A stretch of DNA of 64,000 nt from assembly GCA_021736255.1 (NCBI GenBank), contig JAIPGG010000001.1, positions 11,506-75,505 on the forward strand. The letters are read 5' to 3'. Source of the stretch: Spirochaetales bacterium. GTDB taxonomy: Bacteria; Spirochaetota; Spirochaetia; JAIPGG01. The position numbers were made by a program, and so were the translations under genes. This document shows, one piece after another, positions 8,393-64,000 of the stretch. The first letter of the stretch is position 1, and each line of letters starts with the position of its first letter. Under the pieces are notes generated by a model. It worked only from the letters and a program-made list of their open reading frames with translations, searched no databases and was not told where the DNA came from.

Positions 8393-8606
8393 CTTACGCC
8401 TCCTGATATCGATATTTCATGATAGACCATTCTCGCCGGAGCGCAAGACGCCAAAACTGAACTTTTCACAAATATGCAGGCAGACAAAAAGGCAATCGAC
8501 CGGCGGCCGGTAGTATTCCTCTTTCTCAGATACTGAATACATGCGAAACTCGATACTATAGTGCCTATGATGCTCACCATACGGGAGAGTATGCCGGGAG
8601 GAATGA

Positions 8607-9134: not shown

Positions 9135-9274
9135 GCTGGTATATCGCGCCGGATCTATTCGGGGTCACGGCTGTGCCGGATCGTGGTGATAGTTCAAGCC
9201 ATTGTGTTCTATCTCCACGATCGGGGGCACTAACCCTCTGTTTCAGCCGGAATACTTTTGTTACAATTACCTCG

Positions 9275-10348: not shown

Positions 10349-10434
10349 TTTTTCTCGTCTGACGGCAATATACGACGAAATTCCGATAGCTTGCTGAATC
10401 GATTTTCCACACTATAGAACTCCGAACAGGAGAG

Positions 10435-12149: not shown

Positions 12150-12215
12150 CCTAACGTACCCGGAAATGCCCGGATTCTAGTTGACCTGCTTGTTCACCCG
12201 GCATACTATAGCCGG

Positions 12216-13121: not shown

Positions 13122-13131
13122 GATTCGAAAT

Positions 13132-14337: not shown

Positions 14338-14344
14338 CTGTCCC

Positions 14345-14385
14345 AAGCCGTCCGAATGGATGGGCGGCCTTTTAGCTGCAACAGC
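14345..14385 (+). terminator. Possible intrinsic terminator after the Gfo/Idh/MocA gene
   Basis: Imperfect hairpin 'GCCGTCC-gaatg-GGATGGGC' followed by 'GGCCTTTT'; a weak call. Confidence 0.25.
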
Positions 14386-14438
14386 CATGAAATCCCCGGC
14401 GTTGCGTATATTTGAGGGTGGTTTATACTTAGTATGTA

Positions 14439-16142
14439 ATGTTCTGGAATTCCCGAAGAACTATACGAGCAGTCATCCCGCCGCTTTTCATATTCATTTT
14501 ATTTGCCGGAGTTCTTTTTTTTATCATTATTCCGCAGTCACGGTCGCTCCTTTTTCATCAGATACAAAAGAACAGTGAGGACAATGTTGATCTTGTGCTC
14601 AGGTTGATCGAGTATCATCACAGCAGGGCAGAAGAGGGCGAAATTCCGGTAAGCACGGCAAAACAACGCGCCCTCGATCAGGTTCGGAATCTGCGCTATG
14701 GGCCACAGGAGCGGAACTATTTCTGGATCTGTGATTATCAGCCGATACTGCTCATGCACCCCTATCGAAGCGATTTAGAAGGAAAAAACGTCGGATCATA
14801 TACAGACCCTGAAGGAAACAAGGTCTTTCAGGAAATGGTTGAACTCGTTAAGAAAAGGGGAGAGGGGTATACAGACTACCAGTGGCAATTCCATGGTGAT
14901 CGGTCTCAGGTAGTTTCGAAACGGTCTTATGTCGAGGGTTTTGAACCCTGGCAATGGATCGTAGGGACCGGTATTTACCTCAGTCAAGCTGAAGCGCTCA
15001 TAGACCGGCTGATTCGTTCTTCTACACTAATTGCCCTCATAGCTCTGGCTGTTATCGGATTCGGGGCGTTCTTCCTGGCAAATCGCTCGATTCGCCTCTT
15101 GAGAATATTCGAAACGAGTCAGGCCAATCTTGAGCTCGCCAATCGACAGTATCGTGATCTCGTGGAAACGATGAATGACGGCTTGATTGTGCTCGACCGG
15201 CAGTGGAATATTCGGTACACGAATAAAGCATTTCAGAATATGTTGGATTATACCCAATCCGAATTGGCGGGAAAGCATCTCGACCAGATTGTGCCGGTTT
15301 CCGAGCGTACGATACTCGATGAACAGTTGGAGAAAAGAAAAAAAGGGGAAGATGAGCCCTACGAGATTACATTTAAAAGGAAAAATGGAAAGGTAATTGA
15401 GTGTGTATGCTCCCCGAAACCGATATTTACCCGTGAGGGACTCTTTCACGGGAGTTTCGCCGTGATAACGGATGTGAACACGTTGAAATCAGTGCAAAAA
15501 GATTTGGAAGCAGCTCTTGAAGAAAAGAACCTTCTGCTGCGCGAGGTCCATCATCGGGTAAAAAACAATCTCCAGATTATCTCGAGTATGCTCCACTTGC
15601 AGCAGGAGTCGGTAACGGACCAGAATGCCTGGGCTGCTTTGCGCGATTCCCAATATCGTATCGAAACCCTTGCTCTCGTACATTCGTTCTTATACAGCTC
15701 CGAACAATTCGGTACAATACCCTTGCCTGAATACATCAATGATTTAGTTGCCTCCTTGAGTTCTGCATACGATGTACATGGGAGGAACATTACCATTTCT
15801 GCCGATGTGGCGGATATCGAAATCGGTATCGATCAGACGAATCCCTTGGCGCTGATAATTACCGAGCTGGTTACGAACTGCTTGAAACACGCTTTCCCGG
15901 AGAGGGATACCGGGAGCATCGAAATCACCGTGGCTTACGAGAAGGAACAGGCGGCCGGCACGGTAACCGTGTCTGACAACGGAATCGGGATACAACAAAA
16001 CAGGCAGGACTCCGGTTCGATAGGCATGATGCTGGTCCATGCCATGGTCGATCAGCTGAACGGCAGTATCGAAGTCCATTCCAATGAAGGGACGGTGATA
16101 ACCATTACGGCACCTCTGAAAGTTAAAAATCAGAAGGGATGA
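14439..16142 (+). CDS. Membrane sensor histidine kinase: periplasmic Cache-like sensor domain, PAS domain, HisKA_2 (HWE/HisKA_2-type) dimerisation domain and HATPase
   Basis: Two TM segments flank a roughly 150-aa extracytoplasmic region. PAS region 'MNDGLIVLDRQWNIRYTNKAF'. HisKA_2 signature 'EVHHRVKNNLQIISSMLHLQ'. HATPase motifs 'ELVTNCLKHAF', 'VSDNGIGI', 'GSIGMMLV'. No response regulator is adjacent. Confidence 0.75.
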   Translation: MFWNSRRTIRAVIPPLFIFILFAGVLFFIIIPQSRSLLFHQIQKNSEDNVDLVLRLIEYHHSRAEEGEIPVSTAKQRALDQVRNLRYGPQERNYFWICDYQPILLMHPYRSDLEGKNVGSYTDPEGNKVFQEMVELVKKRGEGYTDYQWQFHGDRSQVVSKRSYVEGFEPWQWIVGTGIYLSQAEALIDRLIRSSTLIALIALAVIGFGAFFLANRSIRLLRIFETSQANLELANRQYRDLVETMNDGLIVLDRQWNIRYTNKAFQNMLDYTQSELAGKHLDQIVPVSERTILDEQLEKRKKGEDEPYEITFKRKNGKVIECVCSPKPIFTREGLFHGSFAVITDVNTLKSVQKDLEAALEEKNLLLREVHHRVKNNLQIISSMLHLQQESVTDQNAWAALRDSQYRIETLALVHSFLYSSEQFGTIPLPEYINDLVASLSSAYDVHGRNITISADVADIEIGIDQTNPLALIITELVTNCLKHAFPERDTGSIEITVAYEKEQAAGTVTVSDNGIGIQQNRQDSGSIGMMLVHAMVDQLNGSIEVHSNEGTVITITAPLKVKNQKG

Positions 16143-16148
16143 ACAAGA

Positions 16149-17780
16149 GTGGAGACCAATCATACGGAAAAGCCTCTGGCCATCCTGATCAATCCTCCGG
16201 TTTATGATGCTGCCCTGTACGATCTCTATCTACGCCCTTTCGGGCTCTTGAGGGTGGGTGCGTGGCTTCGCTCGGCCGGATGGAACACGGTCTATGTGGA
16301 TGCTCTTCGGATCGACGATCCGTCGTCTCTGAAGACTTTCGGTCGGCCGAGGCGGAAAGCGGACGGGACAGGGCATTTTTTCCGCCGGCCGCTGGAGTAC
16401 TCAGATCTTGCCGGGCTATTTTCTGAGCCCAAGGCACGGGAGATATTCTCTGTATACGGGGAGGCAGGGCGGCGGCTTTCTCGTTACGGTGTACTCGCCG
16501 AGTCCTTCAGGAGCATGCTGCAGGATGCGGCAGAAGATGGATCGGCTGCCGGCGGCAGAAAACCCGATCTCTGTCTGGTTCAGGGCGGAATGACCTACTG
16601 GTACCCGGGAGTGCTCGAGACGGTGCGTCTTTGCCGGGAACTGTGGCCGACCGTTCCGGTTGCCGGAGGCGGCGTGTATCCGACCCTTTTACCCGGCCAC
16701 GCAGCACAGATCTGCGGCCTGGATGCGGTCGTCTCGGGGAATGATTTTTCTTCCCTCATCGAGATGTTTAAACACCGGTCTCTGCCGCAGCCGGCGGAAG
16801 CAGCTCCCCCCGTCGTTTCATCGGTTTACACAGGCGGCGATTCGGCGGTGCTCCGGTTGAATATCGGCTGCCCCTACCGCTGCAGCTACTGTGCCTCCGG
16901 ATTGGTCTCCGGCGCTTTTTGTGCCGGCAGTGCCGTCCAGGCGGCGGAGGCTGTTTACGATCTGTGGGAACGGAGGGGAGTGCGGAACTTTGCTTTCTAC
17001 GATGATGCGCTTCTGGTGAAGAAAGAGGAGGTTCTGCTGCCCTTTCTCGAGGCTGTCTCCGAAATAGCAGGCAAGCCGATCGGCAGGCAAGGTGGAGGGC
17101 TTCCCGGATCTGTTGCAGGCGGCAGCCCCGGCGGCACCCCTATCGGCAGCCCCAACGGCAGCCCCAACGGCAACCCCAACGGCAACCCCAACGGCAACCC
17201 CAACGGCAGCCCCGGCGGCACCCCTAGCGGCACCCCCAACGGCACCCTCAGCGGCAGCCCCAACGGCAGCCCCAACACGGGGGGCGAAAGTCCCCCGTGC
17301 TTCTATCTTCCCAATGCCCTGCACGCGGAACTCCTCGATGAACGGACTGCCCGACTGTTAGGACAGGCGGGATTTCAGGAGATCCGTCTCGGGCTTGAAA
17401 GCGCTTCGGATGATTTTCACCGCCGGCAGGATTCCAAACTCGATGAACAGGTTTTCTCCGATGCTGTCCGGATGCTGTTCTCCGCAGGTTTTCACGGCGA
17501 TCGGATCAAGGCTTATGTGCTTGCCGGAATACCGGATCAGACGGCGGAAGAAGCGGAAGAAACGATACGTTTTGCTCTGCGGCTCGGGATTCGGCCGATG
17601 GTTGCTGAGTTTTCACCGGTGCCAGGGACCGAACTGTTCGAGTCGGCACGACGGCAAAGCAGTTTCGATCTTGAGGAACCACTGTTTCAAAATAATTCGG
17701 TTTTTCCCATGGCTTCCCGGTATTTTTCCCGGCCGGAACTGGAACGGCTCAAACGGCTCTCTCGGCAACCGAAAGCTTAA
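16149..17780 (+). CDS. B12-binding-domain radical SAM protein, with an internal low-complexity [S/T/N]-P-x-G tetrapeptide repeat insert
   Basis: N-terminal cobalamin-binding-like region. Radical SAM cluster motif 'CPYRCSYC' (CxxxCxxC). It lies 7 nt downstream of the histidine kinase stop, so co-transcription is likely. It contains a 52-aa G/P/N/S repeat tract. Confidence 0.7.
   Translation: METNHTEKPLAILINPPVYDAALYDLYLRPFGLLRVGAWLRSAGWNTVYVDALRIDDPSSLKTFGRPRRKADGTGHFFRRPLEYSDLAGLFSEPKAREIFSVYGEAGRRLSRYGVLAESFRSMLQDAAEDGSAAGGRKPDLCLVQGGMTYWYPGVLETVRLCRELWPTVPVAGGGVYPTLLPGHAAQICGLDAVVSGNDFSSLIEMFKHRSLPQPAEAAPPVVSSVYTGGDSAVLRLNIGCPYRCSYCASGLVSGAFCAGSAVQAAEAVYDLWERRGVRNFAFYDDALLVKKEEVLLPFLEAVSEIAGKPIGRQGGGLPGSVAGGSPGGTPIGSPNGSPNGNPNGNPNGNPNGSPGGTPSGTPNGTLSGSPNGSPNTGGESPPCFYLPNALHAELLDERTARLLGQAGFQEIRLGLESASDDFHRRQDSKLDEQVFSDAVRMLFSAGFHGDRIKAYVLAGIPDQTAEEAEETIRFALRLGIRPMVAEFSPVPGTELFESARRQSSFDLEEPLFQNNSVFPMASRYFSRPELERLKRLSRQPKA
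17121..17276 (+). repeat. In-frame 12-nt tandem repeat (about 13 units; core 'AGCCCCAACGGC'/'AACCCCAACGGC') encoding (S/N/T)-P-(N/G/S)-G tetrapeptides within the radical SAM gene
   Basis: Direct reading: '...agccccaacggcagccccaacggcaaccccaacggcaaccccaacggcaaccccaacggcagccccggcggc...'. It translates to 'GSPGGTPIGSPNGSPNGNPNGNPNGNPNGSPGGTPSGTPNGTLSGSPNGSPN'. Confidence 0.85.
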
Positions 17781-18898
17781 CGAGCACCGTTATCTTCCAG
17801 ATCCATGTCGGGAGCGTTCCCTACTATTCCTGCAATGATCTTGTTCAGTGCACTGAAAGGGCTCTGGTCCCCGTTGAGGATGGTATAAACCCCGCTGATT
17901 ATAGGCAGCTTGAGATTGTACTCCTCTGCAAGGTGCATGGCATGTTTTGCCGCTACGACTCCCTCCGGCAGATAACCGATCTCCTCGATACGCCGGATCA
18001 GGTCTTCGATGCCGTTGAACCTGCTCAGTTTCCGGTCCAGTATAATCTCCCGGCCGAATCTTCGGTTCCTCCCGTACTTGCTCCGGCAGGTAACATCCAG
18101 GTCGCCTACTCCGGCTATGGAGGTGAAGGTTTCCGGATAATTCGATCCGAGGGCCTTTCCCAGAAGCTGAATCTCGTTGAGTCCGGCAGCCAGAAGCAGC
18201 GATTCAGTGTTGTCGCCGAATCGGTTGGAAAGCTCTTTCAGAGCGTCCAGCATCCCAAAGGCCAGGGCGATTACGTTCTTCACGGCGGCGCTGGTTTGCA
18301 CCCCAACCACATCCAGAGAGGAAAAAACCATGAGGGTTGAAGAGCTCAGCAGCTCACGGAACCTGATTGATTCCTTGCCGTTACTCGAGGCGCTGATTAA
18401 ACCGGTTATCTTGCCCCTGGCCACCTCTTCGGCATGGCTGGGGCCGGAAAGATATACGAGTCTGTCCTGATAATGGTCCGGCAGCATCTCTTCTAAAGCA
18501 GTGACAATCAGTTTCGGCCGGCCGGCGCTTTCGAGAAAGCCTTTTGTCAGGATTCCTATACTCGTTGTTCCCGACAGGATGTTTGGTGCATCGATGATTT
18601 TCCGGAAGGTATCGAGGATGAAAAGAGAGGGAGCGGCCAGGATAAGAAAATCCTTATTTTCTACCGCTTCCGAAATATTGCAGGTCGCGCTGAGGGAGGG
18701 GGGCAGGTCCACTCCCAAAAGATAGCGGCTGTTTTCATGTTCACGGTTGATGTCTCGGGCTACGTCCTCTTCGTAGCTCCAGATTTCTACCGGATTACCG
18801 GCAAGAGCAATACTTCTGGCGATGGCCGTCCCCCAAGCCCCGGCGCCGATGACGCCCACCCGTTGAGGGGTTCCCGTATGTGTTCCGTTTTCTGCCAC
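17777..18898 (-). CDS. gpsA: NAD(P)H-dependent glycerol-3-phosphate dehydrogenase
   Basis: 'VGVIGAGAWGTAIA' NAD-binding motif, 'LSGPSHAEEVA' catalytic region, roughly 340-aa core. It is convergent with the radical SAM gene, with a 4-nt overlap. Confidence 0.85.
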   Translation of the reverse strand: MAENGTHTGTPQRVGVIGAGAWGTAIARSIALAGNPVEIWSYEEDVARDINREHENSRYLLGVDLPPSLSATCNISEAVENKDFLILAAPSLFILDTFRKIIDAPNILSGTTSIGILTKGFLESAGRPKLIVTALEEMLPDHYQDRLVYLSGPSHAEEVARGKITGLISASSNGKESIRFRELLSSSTLMVFSSLDVVGVQTSAAVKNVIALAFGMLDALKELSNRFGDNTESLLLAAGLNEIQLLGKALGSNYPETFTSIAGVGDLDVTCRSKYGRNRRFGREIILDRKLSRFNGIEDLIRRIEEIGYLPEGVVAAKHAMHLAEEYNLKLPIISGVYTILNGDQSPFSALNKIIAGIVGNAPDMDLEDNGAR

Positions 18899-54728: not shown

Positions 54729-56900
54729 GTGATGGAAAAAAGGATCGAACAGATGGATCAGAACAAGCAAGAGGTTATTCAGCTTCCTCGCGGAGGCTAT
54801 TTGGCTCATACTCCGATAGGACCGATACAGTTCGGTTCCCCGCCGGAAACAATAAAAGATACCATGGGTACTGAGCACGGCGTTCCTCAGTATTTTGTTC
54901 TTCCGAAAAAGTTTTTCAACTGGATCAAGGGAATAAGCGTGGCCGAGGTCGAATTCCCGTTATACTACAATTTCTTTTTAAAAAAACGGAAGACTACCAT
55001 TATCTGTACCCCGGAACAGCATAAGCGGTTTATGGCGGCATTGCAGCAGGCGGTATTCGGTCCGGAAGATCTCGATCTCTTGCAGAACTACAGCTCGGAA
55101 CTCGATCCGGAGGATCTGCCTCCTATCAAGGCGGAGCTCGATTTTTTTCGTCACGGACTGCAGCTCGATGACCTGGTTGAATTCCGGTTTTTCGAAAATG
55201 ATCAGGTACTCATTGAAGATCTGAAAATCGAGCTCGAGGAAGACAAAGAGTTTCTCCTGAGCCGCCGGGGGGAGGAACTTGCCAGGGTGCCGGCTATGAT
55301 CGAGTACCACCCTACCTATGATATCGGACGCCGTTTGCCGGAACCCTACAAACCGCCTTTGTTCGGCGTAACCTGTCTGGGGCCGAGCCATGGTTTTGAT
55401 CCAACCGAAAACACTTCGGGATTTATTCTGTGGATGAACCGTCGGGGAATCATGATCGACCCACCCGTCAATACGACTGAGTGGCTGGTGGCATCGAATG
55501 TCAATCCGAAACTCATCGACAGTATTATTCTTACCCACTGTCATGCCGATCACGATGCCGGCACCTTTCAAAAGATACTCGAAGAGAGCAAGGTCGATGT
55601 CTACACGGTTCCGACTGTCATGAACAGTTTCCTCCGGAAATACAGCGCCCTTACCGGGGTTTCGCGGGAATATCTGCAGCAGCTCTTTGAATACCGGCCG
55701 GTCAGTATCGATCAACCGGCCTTTATAAACGGGGGGAAATTCACCTTTCATTTCTCTCTCCATTCGATACCCACGATCGGATTTCAGCTCGAACACGAAG
55801 GTGCATCTTTTGTCTATTCTTCGGACCACAACAATGACCCGGAGATTCACAAAAAACTCTATGACGAGGGGTTGATCTCTCAAAAACGCTACGAAGAGCT
55901 CCTCAATTTTCCATGGTATGCCGACCTGATCTATCACGAAGCCGGTATTCCCCCTCTTCATACCCCGGTAACCGTCCTCAACTCACTTCCAACAAAGATC
56001 AGGAAGAAAATAATCACCTACCATATTGCCAAAAAGGATTTTCCTAAACGCACACCGCTGCGCCTTGCCCAGTTCGGTATCGAACACACTGTTACCATGC
56101 CCGTTAAACCGCCGGACCATGAAGGTGCGTATCATATACTCGGCTTGCTCGACCATCTCGATATCTTCGAAGATATTCCCGTCCGAAAAGCCCGCGAGTT
56201 CGTCAGCATCGTAAAGGAAGAGTCGTTTCGAAAAGGATCAAGGATCATCGAAAAGGGTACGGTGGGAGACAAATTCTACATAATCAAATCCGGCAATGTA
56301 GCGGTTCTGGGAAAGGACCTCGAGCACAGAAAGATTTACGGAGCCTATGATTATTTTGGAGAGGTCGCTCTGTTGACCAGTGCTCCCCGGACTGCAGATG
56401 TGGTTGCCGAAACGGATGTTTCTCTCTACACCATTGAAAAGGAGAAATTTCTTCATTTTATCCGGAATACCGATCTCGATCACACGCTGCGCAGGCTCAC
56501 CCAGATACGGGACAGCGAAACCTGGAACATACTCTCGACCAGTCCGATTTTACGAATTTTGACGAGTACACAGAAGACTCTGCTCGAGTCGATGCTCCAC
56601 AAGCGGACAATAGACAAGCCGGGTACTCTTGTCGAAGAGGGAGCGCAGTACCGGCAGATCTATATTATCAGGGACGGCTCGGTTGAAGTCAGGGATGGTG
56701 GAGAAAAGGTAACCACGCTCGGACGGGGAGATTTTATCGGTGCAATGGGGAAAATCCACCGGAATGAACCTGCCTCGGTTAGCTTTCAGAACACAACCCC
56801 CCTGAAGGTGTATATTATGAAGAAGGAAGATGTCATTGCCTTTCTCAAAAAGAACCCGGGCCTGATTATGAAGCTGGACTATGATTATCCGGGGGCATGA
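54729..56900 (+). CDS. Three-part protein: N-terminal domain of unknown function, metallo-beta-lactamase-fold hydrolase domain, and two C-terminal cyclic-nucleotide-binding (cNMP/CAP-type) domains
   Basis: MBL signature 'IILTHCHADHDAG' (HxHxDH). cNMP-binding cores 'YFGEVALLTSAPRTADVVA' and 'GDFIGAMGKIH...' follow glycine-rich beta-roll segments ('IIEKGTVGDKFYIIKSGNV', 'LVEEGAQYRQIYIIRDGSV'). Confidence 0.7.
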   Translation: MMEKRIEQMDQNKQEVIQLPRGGYLAHTPIGPIQFGSPPETIKDTMGTEHGVPQYFVLPKKFFNWIKGISVAEVEFPLYYNFFLKKRKTTIICTPEQHKRFMAALQQAVFGPEDLDLLQNYSSELDPEDLPPIKAELDFFRHGLQLDDLVEFRFFENDQVLIEDLKIELEEDKEFLLSRRGEELARVPAMIEYHPTYDIGRRLPEPYKPPLFGVTCLGPSHGFDPTENTSGFILWMNRRGIMIDPPVNTTEWLVASNVNPKLIDSIILTHCHADHDAGTFQKILEESKVDVYTVPTVMNSFLRKYSALTGVSREYLQQLFEYRPVSIDQPAFINGGKFTFHFSLHSIPTIGFQLEHEGASFVYSSDHNNDPEIHKKLYDEGLISQKRYEELLNFPWYADLIYHEAGIPPLHTPVTVLNSLPTKIRKKIITYHIAKKDFPKRTPLRLAQFGIEHTVTMPVKPPDHEGAYHILGLLDHLDIFEDIPVRKAREFVSIVKEESFRKGSRIIEKGTVGDKFYIIKSGNVAVLGKDLEHRKIYGAYDYFGEVALLTSAPRTADVVAETDVSLYTIEKEKFLHFIRNTDLDHTLRRLTQIRDSETWNILSTSPILRILTSTQKTLLESMLHKRTIDKPGTLVEEGAQYRQIYIIRDGSVEVRDGGEKVTTLGRGDFIGAMGKIHRNEPASVSFQNTTPLKVYIMKKEDVIAFLKKNPGLIMKLDYDYPGA

Positions 56901-56912
56901 GTCTTTACAAAA

Positions 56913-57866
56913 TCAATCGTCGTCCCGGCGGGTGTCGAATACGGCCCAGAGAGGGCGGTGATCGCTTACGGCAAGGCTCGCTTTTCGATCATCATTGTCG
57001 TATTCGATTTCGTCGAAGAAGTAGACCCCCCAGCGGCCGGTGAATTCAGCGTTCCCGGTGTGCTCGGGGGAAAACCGGATATTGTCGTAGAGGCGGTCTC
57101 TGATACTGGTAGGAAGGATCGGGTTTACCGGATCGGTGATACGGTCCAGGCCGGTAAAGGCCTCGTCATCCGGAGGCAGGTTGAAGTCCCCGGCAAGCAA
57201 GAGGTCCTTTTCTCCCTCGAGCTCTACCAGCATCCCCTTATAGAGTAAATCCAGGAGCCTTACTTCCCCGCGCCGCTGACGGATGGAATCTCCGTAGATA
57301 ATGTGGATCGTCATCACGAAAAAATCGAAGTTTCCTGCCCGAAACCCGGCCACGTAAGGCTCGCGGATAAAGTAATCCTTCTCGTCTGAAATCATGTAGG
57401 TTTTTCTGAACAGCTCGATTCTGTCATCTCGATAGAGAAAGGCGTACCGCTCGGTGATCCCCCGGCCAACCGGTGGAGACACAATATATTCATACCCAAG
57501 ATCATAATCCCTTTTGAGCATGGCAACCGTACGCTTTAGAATCTGTTCGTCTCGAACTTCTTGAAGGGCAATCAGATCGAAATGTTTCAGTATATCGCAA
57601 ATTGCCGAGAGCTCATGCTCGTTTCTCGATCCGTCGGAGAAGATTCGAATATTAAAGGTGGCTATGGATATCTCGTGATCTACTGTGACGGGCAGTTCCC
57701 GAGACTGAGCGCCGATATTCGGGGGAACAGCGGCAAAAAGAATAGAGAGAACTATCGGAAATATGATCCGGACAAGACCGGATGGGTTATTTTTTCCCTG
57801 TCTCAAAGAGTTTCTCGAGTATCTGAGTGTAGTCTTGCTTTGTGTAAACGGGTATGTTGTTTTCAT
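56913..57866 (-). CDS. Secreted endonuclease/exonuclease/phosphatase (EEP) family protein
   Basis: Signal-anchor 'LVRIIFPIVLSILFAAVPPNIGAQS'. EEP motifs 'IATFNIRIF', 'DLIALQEV', 'LLAGDFN', 'SDHRPLWAVF'. The start is uncertain: the listed 57926 and the Met at 57866 both overlap the upstream ADH 3' end. Confidence 0.65.
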   Translation of the reverse strand: MKTTYPFTQSKTTLRYSRNSLRQGKNNPSGLVRIIFPIVLSILFAAVPPNIGAQSRELPVTVDHEISIATFNIRIFSDGSRNEHELSAICDILKHFDLIALQEVRDEQILKRTVAMLKRDYDLGYEYIVSPPVGRGITERYAFLYRDDRIELFRKTYMISDEKDYFIREPYVAGFRAGNFDFFVMTIHIIYGDSIRQRRGEVRLLDLLYKGMLVELEGEKDLLLAGDFNLPPDDEAFTGLDRITDPVNPILPTSIRDRLYDNIRFSPEHTGNAEFTGRWGVYFFDEIEYDNDDRKASLAVSDHRPLWAVFDTRRDDD

Positions 57867-59046
57867 TCGATCCGTTCGATGCAGCACGTTCTGCGATGAG
57901 GGGGATGTCTTCCGGTGGAACGGCAAAACTCGAAAAATCCGGCAGACCGACTTCTGCGGACAACCAGCGAACGCGATTTATGGCGGAAAGAGCACTGTTT
58001 TTGGGTTCCTCCGATTCATCTGTGCTCATAGCAGCGGATAAGGCTGCATAGCGGTCTGCTATCGATAGATCAGCCGATTCTCCCCTGGCAAGATTGAACT
58101 CCATGACCTCCGGAAGGCAGACGGAGTTTGCCGCGCCGTGGGGTATATCGTACAAGCCGCCGAGGGCCTCGGCTATGCAATGAACAGCTCCAACATCCGC
58201 ATGGCTGAAGGCAAGCCCTGCCAGTAGACTGCCGCTCATAACGGCGGATCTGGCTCGGCTGTCTTTTCCGTCTTTTACAGCTGTGGGAAGCCGGCGGCTT
58301 AAGAGTCCGGCTGCATGAAGTGCGCAGGCATCCGAAATGGGTTCGGATGCCTGTGAGGTATAGGCTTCGATTGCGTGGGTAAGGGCATCCATGCCTGTTG
58401 CGGCGGTGAGTGCCGGCGGAAGGGTGTGGGTGAGCTGTGGATCGATGATCGCCAGGGCCGGAGCGATGGCCGGGGTTTTTATCGTAAATTTTGTGTTACG
58501 GGTTGTGTCGGTAATAACTGAGCTGAAGGTTACTTCGCTTCCTGTTCCTGCGGTTGTGGGTACGGCAATCAAGGGGGGTATAATCGAAGCTGATTTGTTC
58601 TCACGTGCTTTCGAAAGCAGAGAATCGACTTGATCCCTGTCTTGAAATAGCGCAGGTTCTCCGCCCAATCCCGCTGTGAGTACTGCTGCTTTCGCAGCGT
58701 CAATAGCGCTTCCTCCTCCAACGGCTACGACCATACCAGCTTGGAAGTCATGAAACAAAGCCGCTATAGCCATGACCTCACTGTCCTTCGGGTTTGCCGT
58801 TACCTTGGAATAGATTTCAATTCCGTACCCGGCTGTTTCAAGCATATCAACAATTGCAGAGAACCATAGCTGTTTTTCGATTCCATTGTCCGTTACCACG
58901 AGTATTCTGCAGGCGGAGTTATTGGAGGAAGGAAGGGCCTCCTTGAGTTTTTCCGGGAGAAGATTGACGGCTCCTTCACCGAATTCAATTTTTGTAGGAA
59001 GAAGAAAAGAAAATGAGGTTGTTTTAAACATATACATTATTGATAT
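57787..59046 (-). CDS. Iron-containing (group III) alcohol dehydrogenase
   Basis: 'VAVGGGSAIDAAKA' NAD-binding GGGS motif, and 'GMDALTHAIEAYTS' and 'HCIAEALGGLYDIPHGAANS' metal-binding His motifs. The listed ORF is from 59313, but I prefer the Met at 59046 ('MYMFKTTSF'). Confidence 0.8.
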   Translation of the reverse strand: MSIMYMFKTTSFSFLLPTKIEFGEGAVNLLPEKLKEALPSSNNSACRILVVTDNGIEKQLWFSAIVDMLETAGYGIEIYSKVTANPKDSEVMAIAALFHDFQAGMVVAVGGGSAIDAAKAAVLTAGLGGEPALFQDRDQVDSLLSKARENKSASIIPPLIAVPTTAGTGSEVTFSSVITDTTRNTKFTIKTPAIAPALAIIDPQLTHTLPPALTAATGMDALTHAIEAYTSQASEPISDACALHAAGLLSRRLPTAVKDGKDSRARSAVMSGSLLAGLAFSHADVGAVHCIAEALGGLYDIPHGAANSVCLPEVMEFNLARGESADLSIADRYAALSAAMSTDESEEPKNSALSAINRVRWLSAEVGLPDFSSFAVPPEDIPLIAERAASNGSNENNIPVYTKQDYTQILEKLFETGKK

Positions 59047-59173
59047 TCTTTCTTCCGGAAATTTGCAAATTCGCTCGTGATTATTTGCACTATCTTTTCG
59101 GAAATACCTGCGGTTCCTCTTTTTTCGACACGAAAATGACGATATTCTATATAGTATCCGAAGGAGGAAACTG

Positions 59174-59965
59174 ATGAACCTACGTCCATTTCGAGATATA
59201 AGGGTGGGGATACGGCCGCCGAAACGTGTATGGATTCTCCTGTCTGTTGCCGCTTTCCTGTTTTTTTTCACATTGCTTCCTTTGAGTTCGACCTCGATCC
59301 GGTCGATCACCACTGTGGAGTCGGAACTTTATTCTTTTGATGACCACACCTGGGACATAGAAGAGGTCGGTATATTCAGTGTTACAGAACAGTTGAGTAT
59401 AGTCGGGAAGGTGCAGTGGTACCAAGAAACCTGGAAACAGGGGGTCAAAGGGATGGCAGGCGTCGTGTTTCCGGTTATCCCCTCCTCATACATGGAAACA
59501 TCCTATGGGCTTGCTTTTGAGGATACTGGTGATATTGTTCATCACGCCCTAGCTGATTTTTACTATGAACATCCGGCTTTTCTGGGGCTGCTCAGTGTCC
59601 GCGCCCAATTTTCCGATAACGGTCAAGTCTATATGCCTTCGGTCGGCATTAAGTGGTATACCACCGACCGCCTTTCTTTGTGGGGAAAATATACAACATC
59701 CATCGACACAGTTATTGGCTTCGACCACTCCTTCTGGGGGGAAGCGGAATATAAAATTCTGGACCCTCTTCTTCTAAAGGCAGGAGGAACAATCGGTTCA
59801 TATCATGCGGATGAATCGAGTCCTCAGGAACTGGAATATTCCTTTCTCGGCGGACTGGGATTTCTCCCAATGGAAATGATCAAATTGTCCTACCAGTTTG
59901 AATATACAATCCGGCAGCAGTATGGAATAATCAGTAATGCTCTTATTCTTGATGCGAGGTTGTAA
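59174..59965 (+). CDS. Hypothetical secreted/outer-membrane protein
   Basis: N-terminal hydrophobic segment 'VWILLSVAAFLFFFTLLPLSS', then alternating aromatic/hydrophobic beta-like strands. No family recognised. Confidence 0.35.
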   Translation: MNLRPFRDIRVGIRPPKRVWILLSVAAFLFFFTLLPLSSTSIRSITTVESELYSFDDHTWDIEEVGIFSVTEQLSIVGKVQWYQETWKQGVKGMAGVVFPVIPSSYMETSYGLAFEDTGDIVHHALADFYYEHPAFLGLLSVRAQFSDNGQVYMPSVGIKWYTTDRLSLWGKYTTSIDTVIGFDHSFWGEAEYKILDPLLLKAGGTIGSYHADESSPQELEYSFLGGLGFLPMEMIKLSYQFEYTIRQQYGIISNALILDARL

Positions 59966-60004
59966 TCTCCGAAGATTCAAATCAGAAGGACCGGGAGGCA
60001 TTGA

Positions 60005-62083
60005 GTGAATACCGCTGAAGCGGTTGAACTTTCGGAGGGAATATTTTGGGTAGGTCAGGATCAGGACCTGAACGGGCTCCATTGCAACGCCTATCTTTTA
60101 ACCGAAGGCGAGCAGGGAGTGTTGATCGATCCGGGCTCGAACCTCGACTATAAGGAAGTTCACCGCAAGACTACCGGGATTCTCCCGATCGAAAAGCTGG
60201 AATACATTATACTCCTCCACCAGGATCCGGATGTTGCATCGAGTGTCCCGCGGTTTCAGGAGGCCGGCTTTACCGGGCAGATCGCAACCCACTGGCGGAC
60301 TTCGCTCATAGCAGCGTATTATGGAATTAATCCTCCCTGGTATCTGGTAAACAAAAAAGGATATAAAATAGTATTCGGCGGCAGGGAGGAACTCGACCGC
60401 GGCGCAAACAACACCTATGGGGAAGGAGAATTGTCCGCAGGCCGCGAACTCGAAGTCATTCCCGCCCCTTACCTGCATTTTCCCGGCGCTGTCATGATTT
60501 ACGATTCCCGTTCGAGAATTCTTTTTTCCGGGGATGTTTTCGGTGCAATTTCAAAAGACTGGTCGCTTTTTGCCGATTCGAATTACACCGAAGGTATGCT
60601 CCGCTTCCACCGGGAATATGTGCCTTCGAACGATATAATAAGACCGGTGATGGAGAACTTGCTCGAGAGAAAGATCGATATGATCTGCCCTCAGCATGGA
60701 TCAATCATTTCAGATAATATTCCTGAATATATTCGTGCGCTCAGAGATCTTGAATGCGGAATATATTTGGAACCTGTAAGAAAAGCTCTTTTGGAGGATG
60801 TCGGATATACCCATCTGGTAAATAAGGTTCTCGGCGCTCTCGTCGAAAGCTATGGAGTCGCTTCTGTTCTCGAAACCTTTGCAGATACAGATGTCATGTT
60901 GGATCAGGCGACAGGTATGCTGCAGGATTATGCAGGAGATCTGGAAAATCTCTGGAATGAACTCTTTGAACAGATATACATCTTTCGAGGTATTGACTGG
61001 ATAATGCTGCTCGAGCCGTTGGTTCGTAAAATTGAACACAACTACGGCATACATAAACCTGTTATTTACCAGAATGAACTGTTTCGAACACAACAGCAGA
61101 TGAATGTTTTGCTGAAAGAAAAGCAGCGGCTCGAGGCGATCAATCAAAGCCTGAGGAACAACCTCAATTTTACCCAGGAGGCCATGACCAAGGATTCGGT
61201 CACCGGTCTGTTCAATGAGGATTTTTGTGTCCGCTTTCTGCTGAATATTTTCAATCAAGAACAATGGGATGACTTCTCGGTTCTTTTTTTCCTCATCGAT
61301 GATATGAAACAGATTAACTCTACCTATGGTGAACGCGCCGGCAATGATATCCTGGAAAGTACTGGAGCAGTTTTATTTTACCAGAAGCATGACGATGATA
61401 CCTTGTTTAGGATAAGCGGCCCCGCTTTTGCCCTGGTGACAAGTGTCCGGGATCAGGAAGATCTCCTCGGCTATGCGGAAAAATTCAGGGTAAGTATAGA
61501 GAATGACAGAGGGTTCCTCACAAAGGTTACCGTTTCGGTGGGCATTGTCCGGGTGCAGAATAGTAAATTAGCTGAACAGTCCGCTCCTGAAAGCATGGAG
61601 CAGATTTTTTCCCGGGGGAGGATGTCTCTTCGAAGCGTCCAGCGGGAAGGCGGTAACCGTGTGCTTTTCGATTCCGATATACAGGGCAGGGACGAAGACA
61701 ATGGGCGGGCAGTCATTCTGGAATTCGATCAGTTCCATGCCAGACTGATTCGTGAATCACTCGAAGCACTGTCCATCGAAACTCGAGTGTGCATGAATGG
61801 GCCGGAAGCTGTACAAACAGCACTTGAATTTCATCCGGATGTTATCGTTTCAGAACTTTTTCTATTGGAAAATGATGCCTTTAGTGTTCGTGAAGATCTT
61901 ATGGAATATACGAAGACGAAGGACATCCCCTTTATACTCATTTCTCATCAGAAAAACGAAGCCATGGTTATCCGAGCCCAGAGTCTGGGTATACTTCATT
62001 ATATAAAAAAGCCCTATATGCTCCCCGAACTCTTGGGTTTGATTACCAGTTATGTCCAGCAGGCGTTTCGGCATGAGCCTTGA
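60005..62083 (+). CDS. Multidomain signalling protein: N-terminal flavodiiron/ODP-like MBL-fold diiron domain, degenerate GGDEF domain and degenerate receiver (REC-like) domain
   Basis: GTG start with a GGGAGG RBS. N-terminal '[33 protein letters not shown]', '[13 protein letters not shown]', '[11 protein letters not shown]...[10 protein letters not shown]', 'ICPQHGSII' align with the flavodiiron-protein diiron site (HxExDH / H / D / H), with E->D and the fourth ligand H->V. The middle section is GGDEF-like with 'RISGPAF' in place of 'R-GG(D/E)EF'. The C-terminal REC-like fold has '[11 protein letters not shown]', i.e. Glu at the phospho-acceptor position. Confidence 0.65.
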
Positions 62084-64000
62084 TATCTCCTTTATTACTA
62101 ATCTATTGATTGTTTTGCTCGCGATTACGGGGGCAATGATTGGACTTCTCTTCTTTAGCAAGCATCAGTATCGCAGGCGTAACAGGAAGAAAACCAGAAT
62201 GTCCAAACTCATCATAGATGGGGTTCTCAAAGGCGGGGGAGAGACGGGTCTTTTGGACCAGCTCAAGAGAGACCGGAAACTCATGTTCAAACTGCTGAAG
62301 GAAATCGGTGATTCTGTAGAGCTTCCTGCATCGGTCAAAGCAAAGTTGGTAGAGGGACTCAGGGAGCGGAAACTTGAAAAAAGCATGATCGGTCAGCTCG
62401 ATGCAATGATGCCCTTAAAGAGGATACGGGCAGCTATGGGGCTCGGCGTTATCGGAGGAACTGCAGCTGAGGAAGCTATGTACAATCGTTTGACGAAAGA
62501 ACCGAAATGGTTTATTCGGTTGGCGCTGGTGCATTCTTTGGTCAGGCTCGAGTATACACCGGTTATTCCCGTTATCTTTTCTTTTCTTCCGGAAGCCCCT
62601 CACTGGTTCCGGGAGAAAGTCATAGCGGTACTGCCGGTTTTTGGCGAAGAGCTGGAACGTCACCTCAAGTTTATGATCGAGACCGGAGAGGGAAAAAACC
62701 GGGGCTTGCTTTTCGAACTTGCCGATCGATTTCCCTCTGCCGTTTTAAATCAATATCTTCAGGATTCGCTGAACAGTAAATATCCTGTGTTACGCCGACG
62801 TGCTGCGGCAGTTCTCGAAAAAAGTGATCCCAGTGTAATGTACGGTTCCGGATATCTGCACGACAAGGACCTGTTTGTTCGGGTGCATGCGGTAAGAAGC
62901 CTGGCTTCAAAACCCGGCGAAGCCGAGATCGATTTTCTCCTAGGAATCCTGGATTCGGATCAGGCGGAAGAGCGCCGGGCCGCACGGTATTCGCTGGGCT
63001 CGATAATTACCGCCGAGCCGAAGCATCTGGAAAAACTACTCGACAGATTTATGGATACAGGCAAAAGGCTTCTTAAGCAGGAACTTGCCCGGGTATTGGA
63101 AAGCAGGCTGGAATACATCCTCTACCGAGTCAAGACGGACCGTTACTGGACGGTCGTCGAAGTGATAAAGGTGTTGATTCAAATGCGCCGTGTGGCTGTT
63201 TTGTTCGGATTTTTTGAACGGAACCAGGATCTGAGTATAGAAAAGGAATTGATAGAGATAATTCAAGGACTGCTCGAAAAAGACCACCAAGCACAGGAAA
63301 TGTTTTCTCGATACATGCCGGAACACAACTTGAAGCAGCTCGGTCTCGAAAGAAGTCTTCCTGAAAACACTCGCGAAAAGGCTCCGATGAAAAAGCAGAA
63401 CAGGCGACTGCTCGTAGGACTGTTCGTTTTGATCCTCATATCCATGCCCCTCATCTACTTCCTGTCGATGGCTGCTGGTGGAGGTTTGTGGGATTCTTTG
63501 TTTTCCGGAAAAGAGGGAACATTTTCCCTGCTTAAGGACCTTATTCTCGGCTTCCGGGTAGAAGGATTTGTTTCCGGATTCAACTATATCTTTGCTTATT
63601 ATTCTATAGCTTTGAATTCAATCTATTTTCTTCTTTTACTGCTCGCCCTAATTCACCTTTTCAAACAGTTTCGGTACTGGGAAATAAGCAGTCTGAGGTT
63701 CTTGTTTTCCGAAGAATTATTGCCGTCGATCTCTATTCTCGCTCCTGCTTATAACGAAGAACTGAATGTTGTAGATAATGTAAAGTCTCTGCTGAACCTT
63801 CATTACCCGGATGTGGAGGTCATTGTTATCAACGATGGATCCGGAGACGGAACTCTGTCTTCTCTGATCGAAACCTTTGAGCTGGAACGGGTAGACATAG
63901 AACGTCGAAATAGTATTCCAACGGAACCGGTTCGAGGGATTTATCGGAGCAGGTCTTATTCCAATCTTACTGTTATTGACAAAGCCAACGGCGGCAAAGC
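62072..64000 (+). CDS. 3'-partial membrane glycosyltransferase: N-terminal TM anchor, HEAT/PBS-lyase-like repeat region, TM segments and a family-2 glycosyltransferase domain (PgaC/IcaA/HmsR-like processive synthase)
   Basis: An open frame from the ATG at 62072 (overlapping the upstream stop by 12 nt) runs to the window end with no stop; alternative start ATG 62198 with a GGAAG RBS. HEAT-like '[13 protein letters not shown]', '[12 protein letters not shown]'. GT2 start '[41 protein letters not shown]'. Confidence 0.65.

What the first reader, a model, noticed from the sequence alone, without database searches (positions are those of the whole stretch)
60005..62083. ODP/flavodiiron-like diiron sensor domain fused to a degenerate GGDEF and a pseudo-receiver
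Seen in the sequence:
- The first roughly 260 aa align motif-for-motif with the MBL-like diiron domain of flavodiiron proteins ('IFWVGxxDxxLxxxHCNAYLL', 'H-Q-D-P-D-V' in the HxExDH position, 'LHFPG', 'SGDVFG', 'PQHG').
- Five of the seven canonical ligands are kept. The Glu is conservatively substituted by Asp, and only one His is replaced, by Val.
- The same polypeptide continues into a GGDEF-like domain whose active-site motif reads 'SGPAF', so it is probably catalytically dead.
- It ends in a REC-like domain with Glu in place of the phosphorylatable Asp.

Established knowledge: stand-alone flavodiiron-like 'ODP' proteins act as O2/Fe(II) sensors that partner chemoreceptors in Treponema/Thermotoga.

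What is unusual: I am not aware of a described fusion of this sensor fold to c-di-GMP-type and receiver-type output domains. It would be a candidate O2/NO/iron-responsive c-di-GMP receptor or scaffold rather than an enzyme.
Basis: partly seen in the sequence, partly recalled or inferred. Interest (0 to 1): 0.8.

Follow-up and report, generated by a model that had tools for sequence, protein, structure and literature searches.

The report
Iron-oxygen sensor paired with polysaccharide synthase
This gene encodes a di-iron oxygen/iron sensor domain joined to a dead c-di-GMP cyclase domain and a non-phosphorylatable receiver, and it belongs to a widespread, unstudied family in anaerobes that always sits directly in front of a membrane polysaccharide synthase, so it is most likely that synthase's sensor-regulator.

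Summary
ORF 60005-62083 (+, 692 aa) contains an ODP di-iron domain (Pfam E=2e-55; fold TM 0.8 to solved ODPs), a GGDEF domain reading SGPAF, and a receiver with Glu at the phospho-acceptor site.

Three parts of the interpretation need correcting:
- "HQDPDV" is the ODP family norm. The complete ODP ligand set (H72, D74, D76, H158, D177, Q230, H231) is intact.
- The architecture is not rare or new. ODP fusions to GGDEF were noted in 2019-2020, and about 190 full-length family members share the same degenerate GGDEF and the Glu receiver.
- The I-site RxxD is not conserved (2 of 190), so the c-di-GMP-receptor idea lacks support.

The main new result is gene linkage. In 72 of 72 genome loci with enough downstream sequence, spanning at least four or five phyla, the gene is followed directly, usually overlapping, by a ~1000-aa protein. 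That protein has a TM segment, HEAT repeats and a processive GT2 with intact catalytic motifs. The window shows the same arrangement (partner starts at 62073, 11-nt overlap). In this spirochaete clade a 14-stranded outer-membrane barrel gene precedes the pair.

Best reading: an O2/Fe(II)-responsive, probably c-di-GMP-independent, regulatory subunit of an exopolysaccharide synthase. It is a new variant of a known kind (BcsE/PelD-like) and has not been characterised experimentally.

The parts
59174..59965 (+). First gene of the apparent operon: a 263-aa protein with a signal peptide and a 14-stranded outer-membrane beta-barrel. It is specific to the spirochaete clade.
   Evidence: No Pfam or NCBIfam family. 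Only 11 homologues were found, and five of them come from contigs whose lengths match contigs that carry the regulator. A homologue (41-45% identity) lies directly upstream of the regulator in L006 and L005. The AF2 model has pLDDT 88.5 and shows a signal helix followed by 14 strands. Foldseek's best TM is to OmpG (0.65); the PgaA-type polysaccharide porin 4y25 and KdgM also match.
59993..59998 (+). Shine-Dalgarno GGGAGG, 6 nt before the GTG start of the ODP gene. The gap after the barrel gene is 39 nt.
   Evidence: Sequence read. No terminator-like site lies in the gap.
60005..60766 (+). ODP di-iron sensor domain (aa 1-254). Ligand positions are H72, D74, D76, H158, D177, Q230 and H231. H202, Y205 and C251-G252 are also invariant.
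   Evidence: Pfam ODP E=2.3e-55. Solved ODPs are the best sequence and fold matches. The ligand columns are 187-190 of 190 conserved. Residues 129-143 are a low-confidence insert that falls in a gap opposite the T. maritima ODP in the phmmer alignment.
60767..61054 (+). Family-specific middle domain (aa 255-350). It is mostly helical with a small hairpin, and no database family covers it.
   Evidence: AF2 secondary structure. W317, F321 and G329 are invariant, and W332 and P338 nearly invariant, in alignment A1. No Pfam hit covers this stretch.
61055..61189 (+). Long signalling helix (about aa 358-395) leading into the GGDEF domain. It is probably a dimeric coiled coil.
   Evidence: One continuous helix, 358-395, in the model. 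Conserved hydrophobic positions are spaced 7-3-4-4. Foldseek matches coiled-coil+GGDEF structures: DgcB 6ttr at TMt 0.82, and IsPadC.
61190..61672 (+). Degenerate GGDEF domain (aa 396-556). The motif reads SGPAF, there is no Mg ligand equivalent to PleD D327, and there is no RxxD I-site.
   Evidence: Pfam GGDEF E=1.7e-12. Residue correspondences come from the PleD alignment. Across the family 0 of 190 have GG[DE]EF and 2 of 190 have RxxD, and the catalytic and base-binding columns are variable.
61700..62071 (+). Pseudo-receiver (aa 566-689) with Glu617 at the phospho-acceptor position. The rest of the pocket is kept (E573, D575, S647, K669).
   Evidence: Pfam Response_reg E=1.8e-8. E617 aligns to PleD D53. 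Family counts of 192: Glu at this position in 180 and Asp in 8; the Ser in 190; the Lys in 188.
62073..64000 (+). Partner gene, cut off by the window end (at least 642 aa). It encodes an N-terminal TM helix, a cytoplasmic HEAT-repeat region, two TM helices, and the start of a processive family-2 glycosyltransferase. Its ATG overlaps the ODP gene's stop by 11 nt.
   Evidence: Open frame to the window end. HEAT_2 1.3e-13, Glycos_transf_2 5.9e-10 and PgaC_IcaA 1e-12. Junction sequence. The same start was called on an independent contig. Topology by the positive-inside rule. An orthologue lies downstream in 72 of 72 loci. GT2 motifs are at least 90% conserved among 65 orthologues.

Best explanation
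The 692-aa protein is the cytoplasmic sensor-regulator subunit of a conserved two-gene exopolysaccharide module. In this spirochaete the module has three genes.

Proposed mechanism:
1. The N-terminal ODP domain holds a di-iron centre that reports O2 and/or Fe(II), as in the chemotaxis ODPs.
2. The resulting change in conformation or subunit association passes through a family-specific middle domain and a coiled-coil helix to a catalytically dead GGDEF domain and a Glu-locked pseudo-receiver.
3. Those two C-terminal domains do not make or sense c-di-GMP and do not receive phosphate. They act as a protein-protein output that docks on the cytoplasmic HEAT-repeat region of the co-translated membrane GT2 synthase. 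That synthase is PgaC/IcaA/cellulose-synthase-like.
4. Docking switches polymer synthesis on or off.
5. In this diderm a 14-stranded outer-membrane barrel encoded just upstream is the candidate exit pore.

Shown here: the domain architecture, the intact ODP ligand set, the family-wide loss of cyclase, I-site and phospho-acceptor residues, the strict gene linkage, and the intact synthase motifs.

Inferred: O2/Fe(II) as the signal, physical contact with the HEAT domain, independence from c-di-GMP, and the direction of regulation, which is unknown.
For: 1. ODP domain. Pfam 2.3e-55. Solved ODPs are the top sequence and fold hits. H72, D74, D76, H158, D177, Q230 and H231 are conserved in 187-190 of 190 members. 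This is the most conserved domain of the protein, with mean column identity 0.64, as expected for a working metal site.

2. Output domains are not enzymes or classical receivers. 0 of 190 have GG[DE]EF and 2 of 190 have RxxD. The D327, N335, D344, E370 and E371 equivalents are variable. Glu sits at the acceptor position in 180 of 192, with the Ser and Lys kept. A 2025 review reports that Glu is the commonest residue there in pseudo-receivers and can mimic phosphorylation through the conserved T and K (PMC12632262).

3. Linkage. 72 of 72 loci with at least 1.5 kb downstream carry the HEAT-GT2 orthologue next on the same strand. These loci come from Spirochaetota, Bacillota, Fibrobacterota, Chloroflexota and others. 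The genes overlap in the window and in Desulfosporosinus. The pair is duplicated as a unit in Clostridium grantii. Apart from the partner and the third downstream gene, no other gene family recurs widely in the flanks of the 80 loci.

4. The partner looks active. NDGSxDxT, IDxDS, GEDME and QRxRW are at least 90% conserved in 65 orthologues. Its HEAT region and GT2 domain are predicted to be cytoplasmic, where the soluble regulator is; no TM segment was found in the regulator.

5. Precedent. PelD and BcsE are degenerate-GGDEF regulators of EPS synthases (PMC8461298). ODP is an established O2/Fe(II) sensor (abstract-level knowledge of Muok 2019).
Against: - No experiment exists on any member of the family.
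- The metal content and the signal are inferred from homology at 23-26% identity to the solved ODPs.
- Contact between REC*/GGDEF* and the HEAT region is inferred only from gene adjacency and predicted topology. No complex was modelled.
- The one apparent regulator-synthase fusion (P0094) is an in-frame deletion that cuts the GGDEF domain in half, so it is poor Rosetta-stone evidence.
- Non-canonical nucleotide binding cannot be excluded from sequence alone.
- The partner's polymer is unknown. PgaC_IcaA scores 121.9 bits against a cutoff of 422.
- The window ends before the partner's catalytic motifs, so for this organism they are inferred from orthologues such as L006.
Confidence: 0.5

Rival explanations
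1. It is a c-di-GMP (or GTP or other nucleotide) receptor. The dead GGDEF or the pseudo-receiver binds the nucleotide through a non-canonical site, and the ODP domain adds an O2/iron input. In this reading the synthase is controlled jointly by c-di-GMP and O2.
For: Known degenerate-GGDEF regulators of EPS synthases (PelD, BcsE) are c-di-GMP receptors. The GGDEF fold core is retained: D432, G472, F475, R/K469 and R495 are conserved. The window protein itself keeps the PleD K332, N335 and R366 equivalents.
Against: RxxD is present in only 2 of 190 members. The positions equivalent to R359, D362, R390, N335 and D344 are variable across the family. A ligand site under selection would be expected to be conserved. 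No PilZ or other known c-di-GMP module is detected in the regulator or the partner.
Confidence: 0.15
2. It is a constitutive structural or assembly subunit of the synthase complex. The ODP domain no longer senses anything physiologically: the metal site is kept for folding, or it binds Zn or Mn.
For: Strict co-occurrence and gene overlap fit an obligate subunit just as well as a regulator. A zinc-reconstituted ODP crystal form exists (6qwo).
Against: All seven ODP ligand positions, plus H202 and Y205, are conserved in 187-190 of 190 members across phyla. ODP is the most conserved domain of the protein. That degree of conservation is hard to explain for a purely structural remnant, especially when the neighbouring GGDEF active site has drifted freely. 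The family is found in anaerobes, which fits O2 being a relevant signal.
Confidence: 0.15
3. It is a conventional two-component response regulator whose receiver is still controlled by a kinase, by phosphorylation at another residue or in the Asp-bearing members. ODP would then be a secondary input.
For: 8 of 192 members, including Desulfosporosinus acidiphilus and Fusibacter, have Asp at the acceptor position. The acidic pocket, the Ser and the Lys are retained.
Against: The window protein and 94% of the family have Glu, which cannot be phosphorylated in the normal way. Apart from the partner and the third downstream gene, no other gene family, and so no histidine kinase, recurs widely in the flanks of the 80 loci. 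The receiver is C-terminal to the output-like domain, which is atypical for a response regulator.
Confidence: 0.05
4. It is an active diguanylate cyclase, as database annotations say ('diguanylate cyclase', 'PleD-like cell cycle response regulator').
For: Only the database names and sub-threshold NCBIfam PleD similarity, 91 bits against a cutoff of 474.
Against: SGPAF stands in place of GGEEF. The equivalents of the Mg ligand D327 and of E370 and E371 are missing. No family member has GG[DE]EF.
Confidence: 0.01

Closest known systems
ODP, oxygen-binding di-iron protein (T. denticola TDE2498, T. maritima ODP; PDB 6qnm, 6r9n, 6qrq, 6qwo; Pfam PF19583)
   Same: Same fold (TM about 0.8) and the same HQDPDV, H, D and PQHG ligand pattern. 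The FDP His is replaced by a hydrophobic residue and compensated by the motif-5 Gln. It is used as a signalling input, not as an enzyme.
   Different: The known ODPs are stand-alone proteins of about 250 aa that act on a cytoplasmic chemoreceptor and CheA. Here the domain is covalently joined to GGDEF* and REC*, and it is genetically tied to a glycosyltransferase, not to an MCP. Identity to the solved ODPs is only 23-26%.
BcsE (cellulose secretion regulator: REC* plus GGDEF* with an I-site) and PelD (GAF plus degenerate GGDEF)
   Same: Catalytically dead GGDEF domains, combined in BcsE with a non-phosphorylatable receiver according to my own recollection of Zouhir et al. 2020 (not read here). 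They are encoded with a synthase-dependent exopolysaccharide machine and regulate it post-translationally.
   Different: BcsE and PelD keep RxxD and work by binding c-di-GMP. This family has lost RxxD (2 of 190). It has an ODP metal sensor as its apparent input, a different domain order (sensor, GGDEF*, REC*), and a HEAT-domain synthase without PilZ as its partner. There is no detectable sequence relationship beyond the shared domain families.
Hemerythrin-GGDEF (Vibrio cholerae Bhr-DGC) and globin-coupled DGCs (DgcO)
   Same: A non-haem di-iron (or haem) O2-sensing domain fused N-terminally to a GGDEF domain.
   Different: Those GGDEF domains are active cyclases and the output is c-di-GMP concentration. 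Here the GGDEF is dead and the di-iron fold is MBL-type, not a hemerythrin four-helix bundle.
Flavodiiron proteins (FprA, ROO, NorV)
   Same: A homologous MBL-like di-iron domain, which gives the second tier of fold hits.
   Different: There is no flavodoxin/FMN domain. Asp stands in place of the FDP Glu. The FDP His84 position is always hydrophobic (F/L/V/I in 189 of 192). It is not an O2/NO reductase.
PgaC/IcaA, BcsA, NodC-type processive GT2 synthases (comparison for the partner gene)
   Same: D, DxD, GED/TED and QxxRW motifs with flanking TM helices. The best NCBIfam hit is PgaC_IcaA at 3e-35.
   Different: The score is far below the PgaC_IcaA cutoff (121.9 against 422). The partner has a unique N-terminal TM helix plus a cytoplasmic HEAT-repeat region of about 415 aa, and no PilZ domain.

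Membership tests
ODP family (Pfam PF19583) | Profile match above the gathering score | tested here: met
   187.9 bits against a cutoff of 27.2, covering model positions 1-194 of 194.
ODP family (Pfam PF19583) | ODP-type ligand set: H-x-D-x-D followed by a non-His residue, then His (motif 3), Asp (motif 4) and Gln-His (motif 5) | tested here: met
   H72, D74, D76, V77, H158, D177, Q230 and H231 are present and align with both solved ODPs. The role of the Gln comes from PMC7785958. Family conservation is 187-190 of 190.
ODP family (Pfam PF19583) | ODP three-dimensional fold | tested here: met
   Foldseek top 10 hits are all ODP chains, with TMt 0.72-0.83. The model has pLDDT 86.7.
ODP family (Pfam PF19583) | Binds two Fe and forms a reversible O2 (peroxo) adduct | not testable with these tools
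   Needs metal analysis and spectroscopy.
Flavodiiron proteins | H-x-E-x-D-H motif and a C-terminal flavodoxin (FMN) domain | tested here: not met
   The motif reads HQDPDV. No flavodoxin domain appears in Pfam. NorV equivalog models score 33-38 bits against cutoffs of 635-711.
Diguanylate cyclases (active GGDEF) | GG(D/E)EF active-site motif and Mg-binding Asp | tested here: not met
   SGPAF, and L430 at the PleD D327 position. 0 of 190 family members have GG[DE]EF. The domain itself passes the Pfam GGDEF cutoff, 47.8 against 23.8.
Degenerate-GGDEF c-di-GMP receptors (PelD, BcsE, PopA type) | Intact I-site RxxD five residues before the GGDEF position | tested here: not met
   HDDD in the window protein. 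RxxD occurs in 2 of 190 members, and the secondary Arg (PleD R390 equivalent) is variable.
Degenerate-GGDEF c-di-GMP receptors (PelD, BcsE, PopA type) | Binds c-di-GMP | not testable with these tools
   Needs DRaCALA or ITC.
Degenerate-GGDEF c-di-GMP receptors (PelD, BcsE, PopA type) | Encoded with an exopolysaccharide synthase | tested here: met
   The HEAT-GT2 gene lies directly downstream in 72 of 72 loci and in the window.
Receiver domains (PF00072), phosphorylatable | Asp at the phospho-acceptor position at the end of beta-3 | tested here: not met
   E617 aligns to PleD D53. Glu is found in 180 of 192 family members. The domain passes the Pfam cutoff, 35.0 against 30.2.
Pseudo-receivers / aspartate-less receivers (ALR) | Receiver fold that lacks the acceptor Asp | tested here: met
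   As in the row above. Glu is the commonest replacement in ALRs (PMC12632262). The model shows the (beta-alpha)5 pattern over aa 567-689.

The most novel reading that the evidence does not exclude
The gene marks a previously unrecognised class of synthase-dependent exopolysaccharide system that is widespread in strict anaerobes, with relatives in up to about 500 species genomes across at least four or five phyla. In this system polymer synthesis is gated directly by O2 or Fe(II) through a di-iron ODP sensor. A GGDEF domain and a receiver domain have both lost their nucleotide and phosphoryl chemistry and have been repurposed as a pure protein-protein transducer to a HEAT-domain GT2 synthase. 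Biofilm-matrix control would then bypass c-di-GMP altogether.
Probability: 0.35. Interest if true: 0.75.

Novelty: new variant of a known kind. Interest (0 to 1): 0.58.

Why it matters
If the model is right, many anaerobes have a hard-wired link between oxygen or iron exposure and production of a surface polysaccharide. These include clostridia, acetogens, syntrophs, Anaerolineae, Fibrobacteres and free-living or host-associated spirochaetes. It would be a simple, testable route to oxygen-tolerance biofilms.

It would also be a clear case of GGDEF and receiver domains surviving as signal-transducing scaffolds after losing all of their classical chemistry. That matters for genome annotation, because these proteins are currently named 'diguanylate cyclase' or 'response regulator'. 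It also matters for counts of c-di-GMP signalling capacity.

The family offers a second, non-chemotaxis output for the ODP sensor. It also provides about 190 natural regulator-synthase pairs for co-evolution analysis and structural work.

Tried and rejected
- **Reading Muok et al. 2019 directly.** I tried by DOI and by PMC id, and the paper is not held. The ODP ligand set and the prior notice of fusions therefore rest on secondary sources.
- **Literature searches for a described family.** Searches for ODP with GGDEF or c-di-GMP, and for PF19583, found no characterisation of this family. A 2022 census of c-di-GMP sensory domains lists hemerythrin, globin and PAS for O2, and none of the terms lactamase, flavodiiron or diiron occurs in it.
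- **P0094 as a Rosetta-stone fusion.** This 989-aa protein carries ODP+GGDEF+GT2. I rejected it as strong evidence because it joins the regulator at about aa 475, in the middle of GGDEF*, to partner residue about 431. It is an in-frame deletion or an assembly artefact.
- **Homologue search with the partner fragment, looking for true fusions or alternative sensors.** The word prefilter returned a single hit, so the search was uninformative.
- **The third conserved downstream gene** (about 1000 aa, present in 41 of 59 loci). It has no Pfam, NCBIfam or PDB sequence match, so its function is left open. It is absent from the nearest spirochaete relatives, and the window ends too early to tell whether it is present here.
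- **RNA genes.** Rfam and tRNA scans of 58.5-64 kb and 55-64 kb found nothing. The apparently ORF-poor stretch after 62083 is simply the partner gene running off the window.
- **Promoter and terminator scan.** Counts are no better than in shuffled sequence and are not used as evidence.
- **L007:1131-1865 as a barrel homologue.** No similarity.
- **Source contig.** The independent contig found for the window protein ends at about the same place as the window, so nothing further downstream could be read.
Full report
**1. What is there**

The window holds an ORF at 60005..62083 on the + strand (692 aa, GTG start) exactly as reported. A GGGAGG ribosome-binding site lies 6 nt upstream.

- Pfam places three domains above their gathering scores: ODP (PF19583, aa 25-232, E=2.3e-55), GGDEF (aa 396-521, E=1.7e-12) and Response_reg (aa 573-678, E=1.8e-8).
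- The closest solved structures by sequence are the two oxygen-binding di-iron proteins, 6qrq/6qwo and 6qnm/6r9n.
- An AlphaFold2 model built on 38 family members has mean pLDDT 86.7. Its top ten Foldseek matches in the PDB are all ODP chains (TM 0.72-0.83). Flavodiiron proteins and coiled-coil+GGDEF structures follow.
- The model also shows a family-specific, mostly helical middle domain (aa 255-350) and one long helix (aa 358-395) with heptad-like conserved hydrophobics running into the GGDEF domain.

**2. The three domains in detail**

- Both solved ODPs also read HQDPDV, so this is the family norm.
- A survey of the MBL superfamily states that in T. maritima ODP the missing third His of motif 2 is replaced as a ligand by a Gln at motif 5 (PMC7785958). 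That Gln is the Q of PQHG, Q230 here.
- In about 190 non-redundant family members, H72, D74, D76, H158, D177, Q230 and H231 are each conserved in 187-190 sequences. H202 and Y205 (FHxxY) and C251-G252 are invariant. The FDP-His position is always hydrophobic.
- ODP is the most conserved domain of the protein. The site is a complete ODP site under strong selection.

*GGDEF.* The phmmer alignment to PleD gives these correspondences:

| PleD residue | Role | Window residue |
|---|---|---|
| GGEEF | active-site motif | SGPAF |
| D327 | Mg ligand | L430 |
| D344 | guanine binding | N447 |
| R359-x-x-D362 | I-site | HDDD |

Family-wide, none of 190 members has GG[DE]EF and only 2 have RxxD. The columns equivalent to D327, K332, N335, D344, E370, E371 and R390 are all variable, while fold-core residues are kept. 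The domain is therefore neither a cyclase nor a canonical I-site receptor.

*Receiver.* E617 aligns with the PleD acceptor D53.
- Glu occupies this column in 180 of 192 members and Asp in 8. The Asp-bearing members include Desulfosporosinus acidiphilus and Fusibacter.
- The acidic pocket (D/E573, D575), the Ser at the 'T' position (190 of 192) and the Lys (188 of 192) are kept.
- A 2025 review of pseudo-receivers notes that Glu is the commonest residue at this position. It can act as a phosphomimetic by engaging the conserved T and K (PMC12632262).

**3. How common, and is the fusion new?**

- A search of 5.8 billion proteins returned 513 hits. 119 of the best 120 have the same ODP+GGDEF+REC architecture, and nearly all are about 640-715 aa long. 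They come from Spirochaetia, Clostridia, Desulfitobacteria, Neomarinimicrobiota and others. The window protein is identical to a 'diguanylate cyclase' of a Spirochaetales MAG.
- A scan of one genome per species found relatives in 497 genomes. This is an upper bound for the family, because the search patterns lie in the ODP domain. Nearly all of the best 80 cover almost the full length. They come from Spirochaetota, Bacillota (including Negativicutes), Fibrobacterota, Chloroflexota (Anaerolineae), Margulisbacteria and a few others, essentially all from anaerobic lineages.
- The TREND paper and its Fig. S2 legend summarise Muok et al. 2019 as having already identified ODP homologues fused to signal-transduction domains, GGDEF among them.

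So the fusion is not new as an architecture. I found no paper that characterises the family, notes its degenerate GGDEF and Glu receiver, or describes its gene context. No NCBIfam model is specific for it.

**4. The context is the key**

- The stretch after 62083 looked ORF-free only because the ORF lister omits frames that run off the window. A + strand frame is open from 62043 to the window end.
- Its ATG at 62073 overlaps the ODP gene's TGA (62081-62083) by 11 nt. The same start was called on an independent contig.
- The product has an N-terminal TM helix, HEAT repeats (1.3e-13) and the beginning of a family-2 glycosyltransferase (5.9e-10; PgaC_IcaA 1e-12).
- The same pair, overlapping, occurs in Desulfosporosinus acidiphilus. 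It occurs twice in tandem in Clostridium grantii. The partners are homologous over their whole length, not just in the GT2 domain.
- Of the 80 genome loci, all 72 with at least 1.5 kb of downstream sequence have the partner next on the same strand.
- Among 65 full-length partners, the hallmark motifs of processive GT2 synthases are at least 90% conserved: NDGSxDxT, IDxDS, GEDME and QRxRW. The best curated model is PgaC/IcaA, at 3e-35 but far below its cutoff.
- The positive-inside rule places the roughly 415-aa HEAT region and the GT2 domain in the cytoplasm. The regulator is soluble, with no TM segment.
- Apart from the partner and the third gene below, no other gene family recurs widely in the flanks, and so no conserved histidine kinase.
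- A third gene of about 1000 aa, with no database match, follows the partner in 41 of 59 loci. It is absent from the closest spirochaete relatives.

**5. Spirochaete-specific addition**

The 263-aa ORF at 59174-59965 ends 39 nt before the ODP gene.
- It has no family assignment.
- It is conserved directly upstream of the regulator in related spirochaete contigs, at 41-45% identity.
- It has only 11 homologues. Five of them come from contigs whose lengths match regulator-bearing contigs.
- Its AF2 model (pLDDT 88.5) is a signal helix followed by a 14-stranded beta-barrel. The model is most similar to OmpG. A PgaA-type polysaccharide porin and KdgM are also among the matches.

In this diderm the unit is therefore an outer-membrane barrel, the ODP-GGDEF*-REC* regulator, and the HEAT-GT2 synthase. 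This is the minimal parts list of a synthase-dependent polysaccharide secretion system.

**6. Mechanism proposed**

- Shown: an intact, strongly conserved ODP metal site. Output domains stripped of their catalytic, I-site and phospho-acceptor residues across the whole family. Obligate, often translationally coupled linkage to an apparently active processive synthase that carries a large cytoplasmic HEAT domain.
- Inferred: the ODP domain reports O2 and/or Fe(II), as in chemotaxis ODPs. The signal passes through the middle domain and the coiled coil, probably in a dimer. The GGDEF* and the Glu-locked REC* form the surface that contacts the synthase's HEAT region to switch polymerisation.
- The sign of regulation is unknown. 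I give the whole model about 0.5.
- Rivals: a non-canonical c-di-GMP or nucleotide receptor (0.15), a constitutive structural subunit with a non-sensing metal site (0.15), a kinase-controlled receiver (0.05), and an active cyclase (0.01).

**7. Comparison and novelty**

- It is a member of the ODP family by profile, ligand pattern and fold. Metal and O2 binding could not be tested here.
- It is not a flavodiiron protein, because it has no FMN domain and no HxExDH motif.
- It is not an active diguanylate cyclase.
- It fails the defining I-site test for PelD/BcsE-type receptors, although it resembles them in what it appears to do: a dead GGDEF, here with a dead receiver, regulating an EPS synthase.
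- Its receiver meets the definition of a pseudo-receiver (ALR).
- It resembles hemerythrin-GGDEF proteins in joining a di-iron O2 sensor to a GGDEF domain, but those are active enzymes.

I therefore class it as a new variant of a known kind. The gene is one member of a large, already sequenced but uncharacterised family. Interest is moderate to high (0.58). The conserved sensor-synthase module, and the family-wide loss of all c-di-GMP and phosphoryl chemistry, form a concrete and testable lead.

Noticed in passing
window 54729-56900 (+): A 723-aa protein with an MBL-fold domain (Lactamase_B_2, RNase Z-like; an Anti-Pycsar Apyc1-like hit is on record for the identical gene on contig L086) followed by two cNMP-binding domains (5e-32). 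It is a candidate cyclic-nucleotide-regulated MBL phosphodiesterase. Two minus-strand genes separate it from the ODP operon, and it is not part of the conserved module.
   Followed up: partly
window 59174-59965 (+): A spirochaete-restricted family (11 homologues) of 14-stranded outer-membrane beta-barrels with no Pfam family, always found next to the ODP regulator. Databases name it variously as 'opacity protein-like' or 'TonB-dependent receptor'.
   Followed up: yes
L057:6631-9930, L010:12038-15241, L084:11872-14745 and 38 other loci: A third conserved gene of about 960-1100 aa with an N-terminal TM segment follows the HEAT-GT2 synthase in 41 of 59 loci, usually with a 4-nt overlap. It has no Pfam, NCBIfam or PDB sequence match, and its function is unknown.
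   Followed up: partly
L003 (Clostridium grantii) 8001-17932: Two complete regulator+synthase pairs lie in tandem. The pair was duplicated as a unit, which suggests pair-specific matching of regulator and synthase.
   Followed up: no
L005:7303-10272 (P0094): A 989-aa 'ODP+GGDEF+GT2' protein that is really an in-frame deletion. It joins the middle of the GGDEF* domain to the partner just before its second TM helix, and so lacks REC*, TM1 and most of the HEAT region. It is either a natural deletion variant or an assembly artefact.
   Followed up: partly
window 57787-59313 (-): The mechanical 508-aa ORF for the iron-containing alcohol dehydrogenase is over-extended at its 5' end. The gene call on the identical contig gives 414 aa, equivalent to window 57787-59031. 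The apparent overlap with the barrel gene's start at 59174 is therefore not real, and the two genes diverge from an intergenic region of about 140 nt.
   Followed up: partly
window 60389-60433 (aa 129-143 of the ODP protein): A Gly/Asn/Glu-rich insert ([15 protein letters not shown]) with pLDDT below 50. It falls in a gap opposite the T. maritima ODP in the phmmer alignment and is probably a surface loop.
   Followed up: no
regulators P0076 (D. acidiphilus) and P0108, and those of loci L070, L074, L076, L080, L082 and L083 (Fusibacter, Acidaminobacter, Peptostreptococcaceae): A minority of family members (8 of 192) carry Asp instead of Glu at the receiver's acceptor position. These may still be phosphorylatable, or they may represent the ancestral state.
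   Followed up: no
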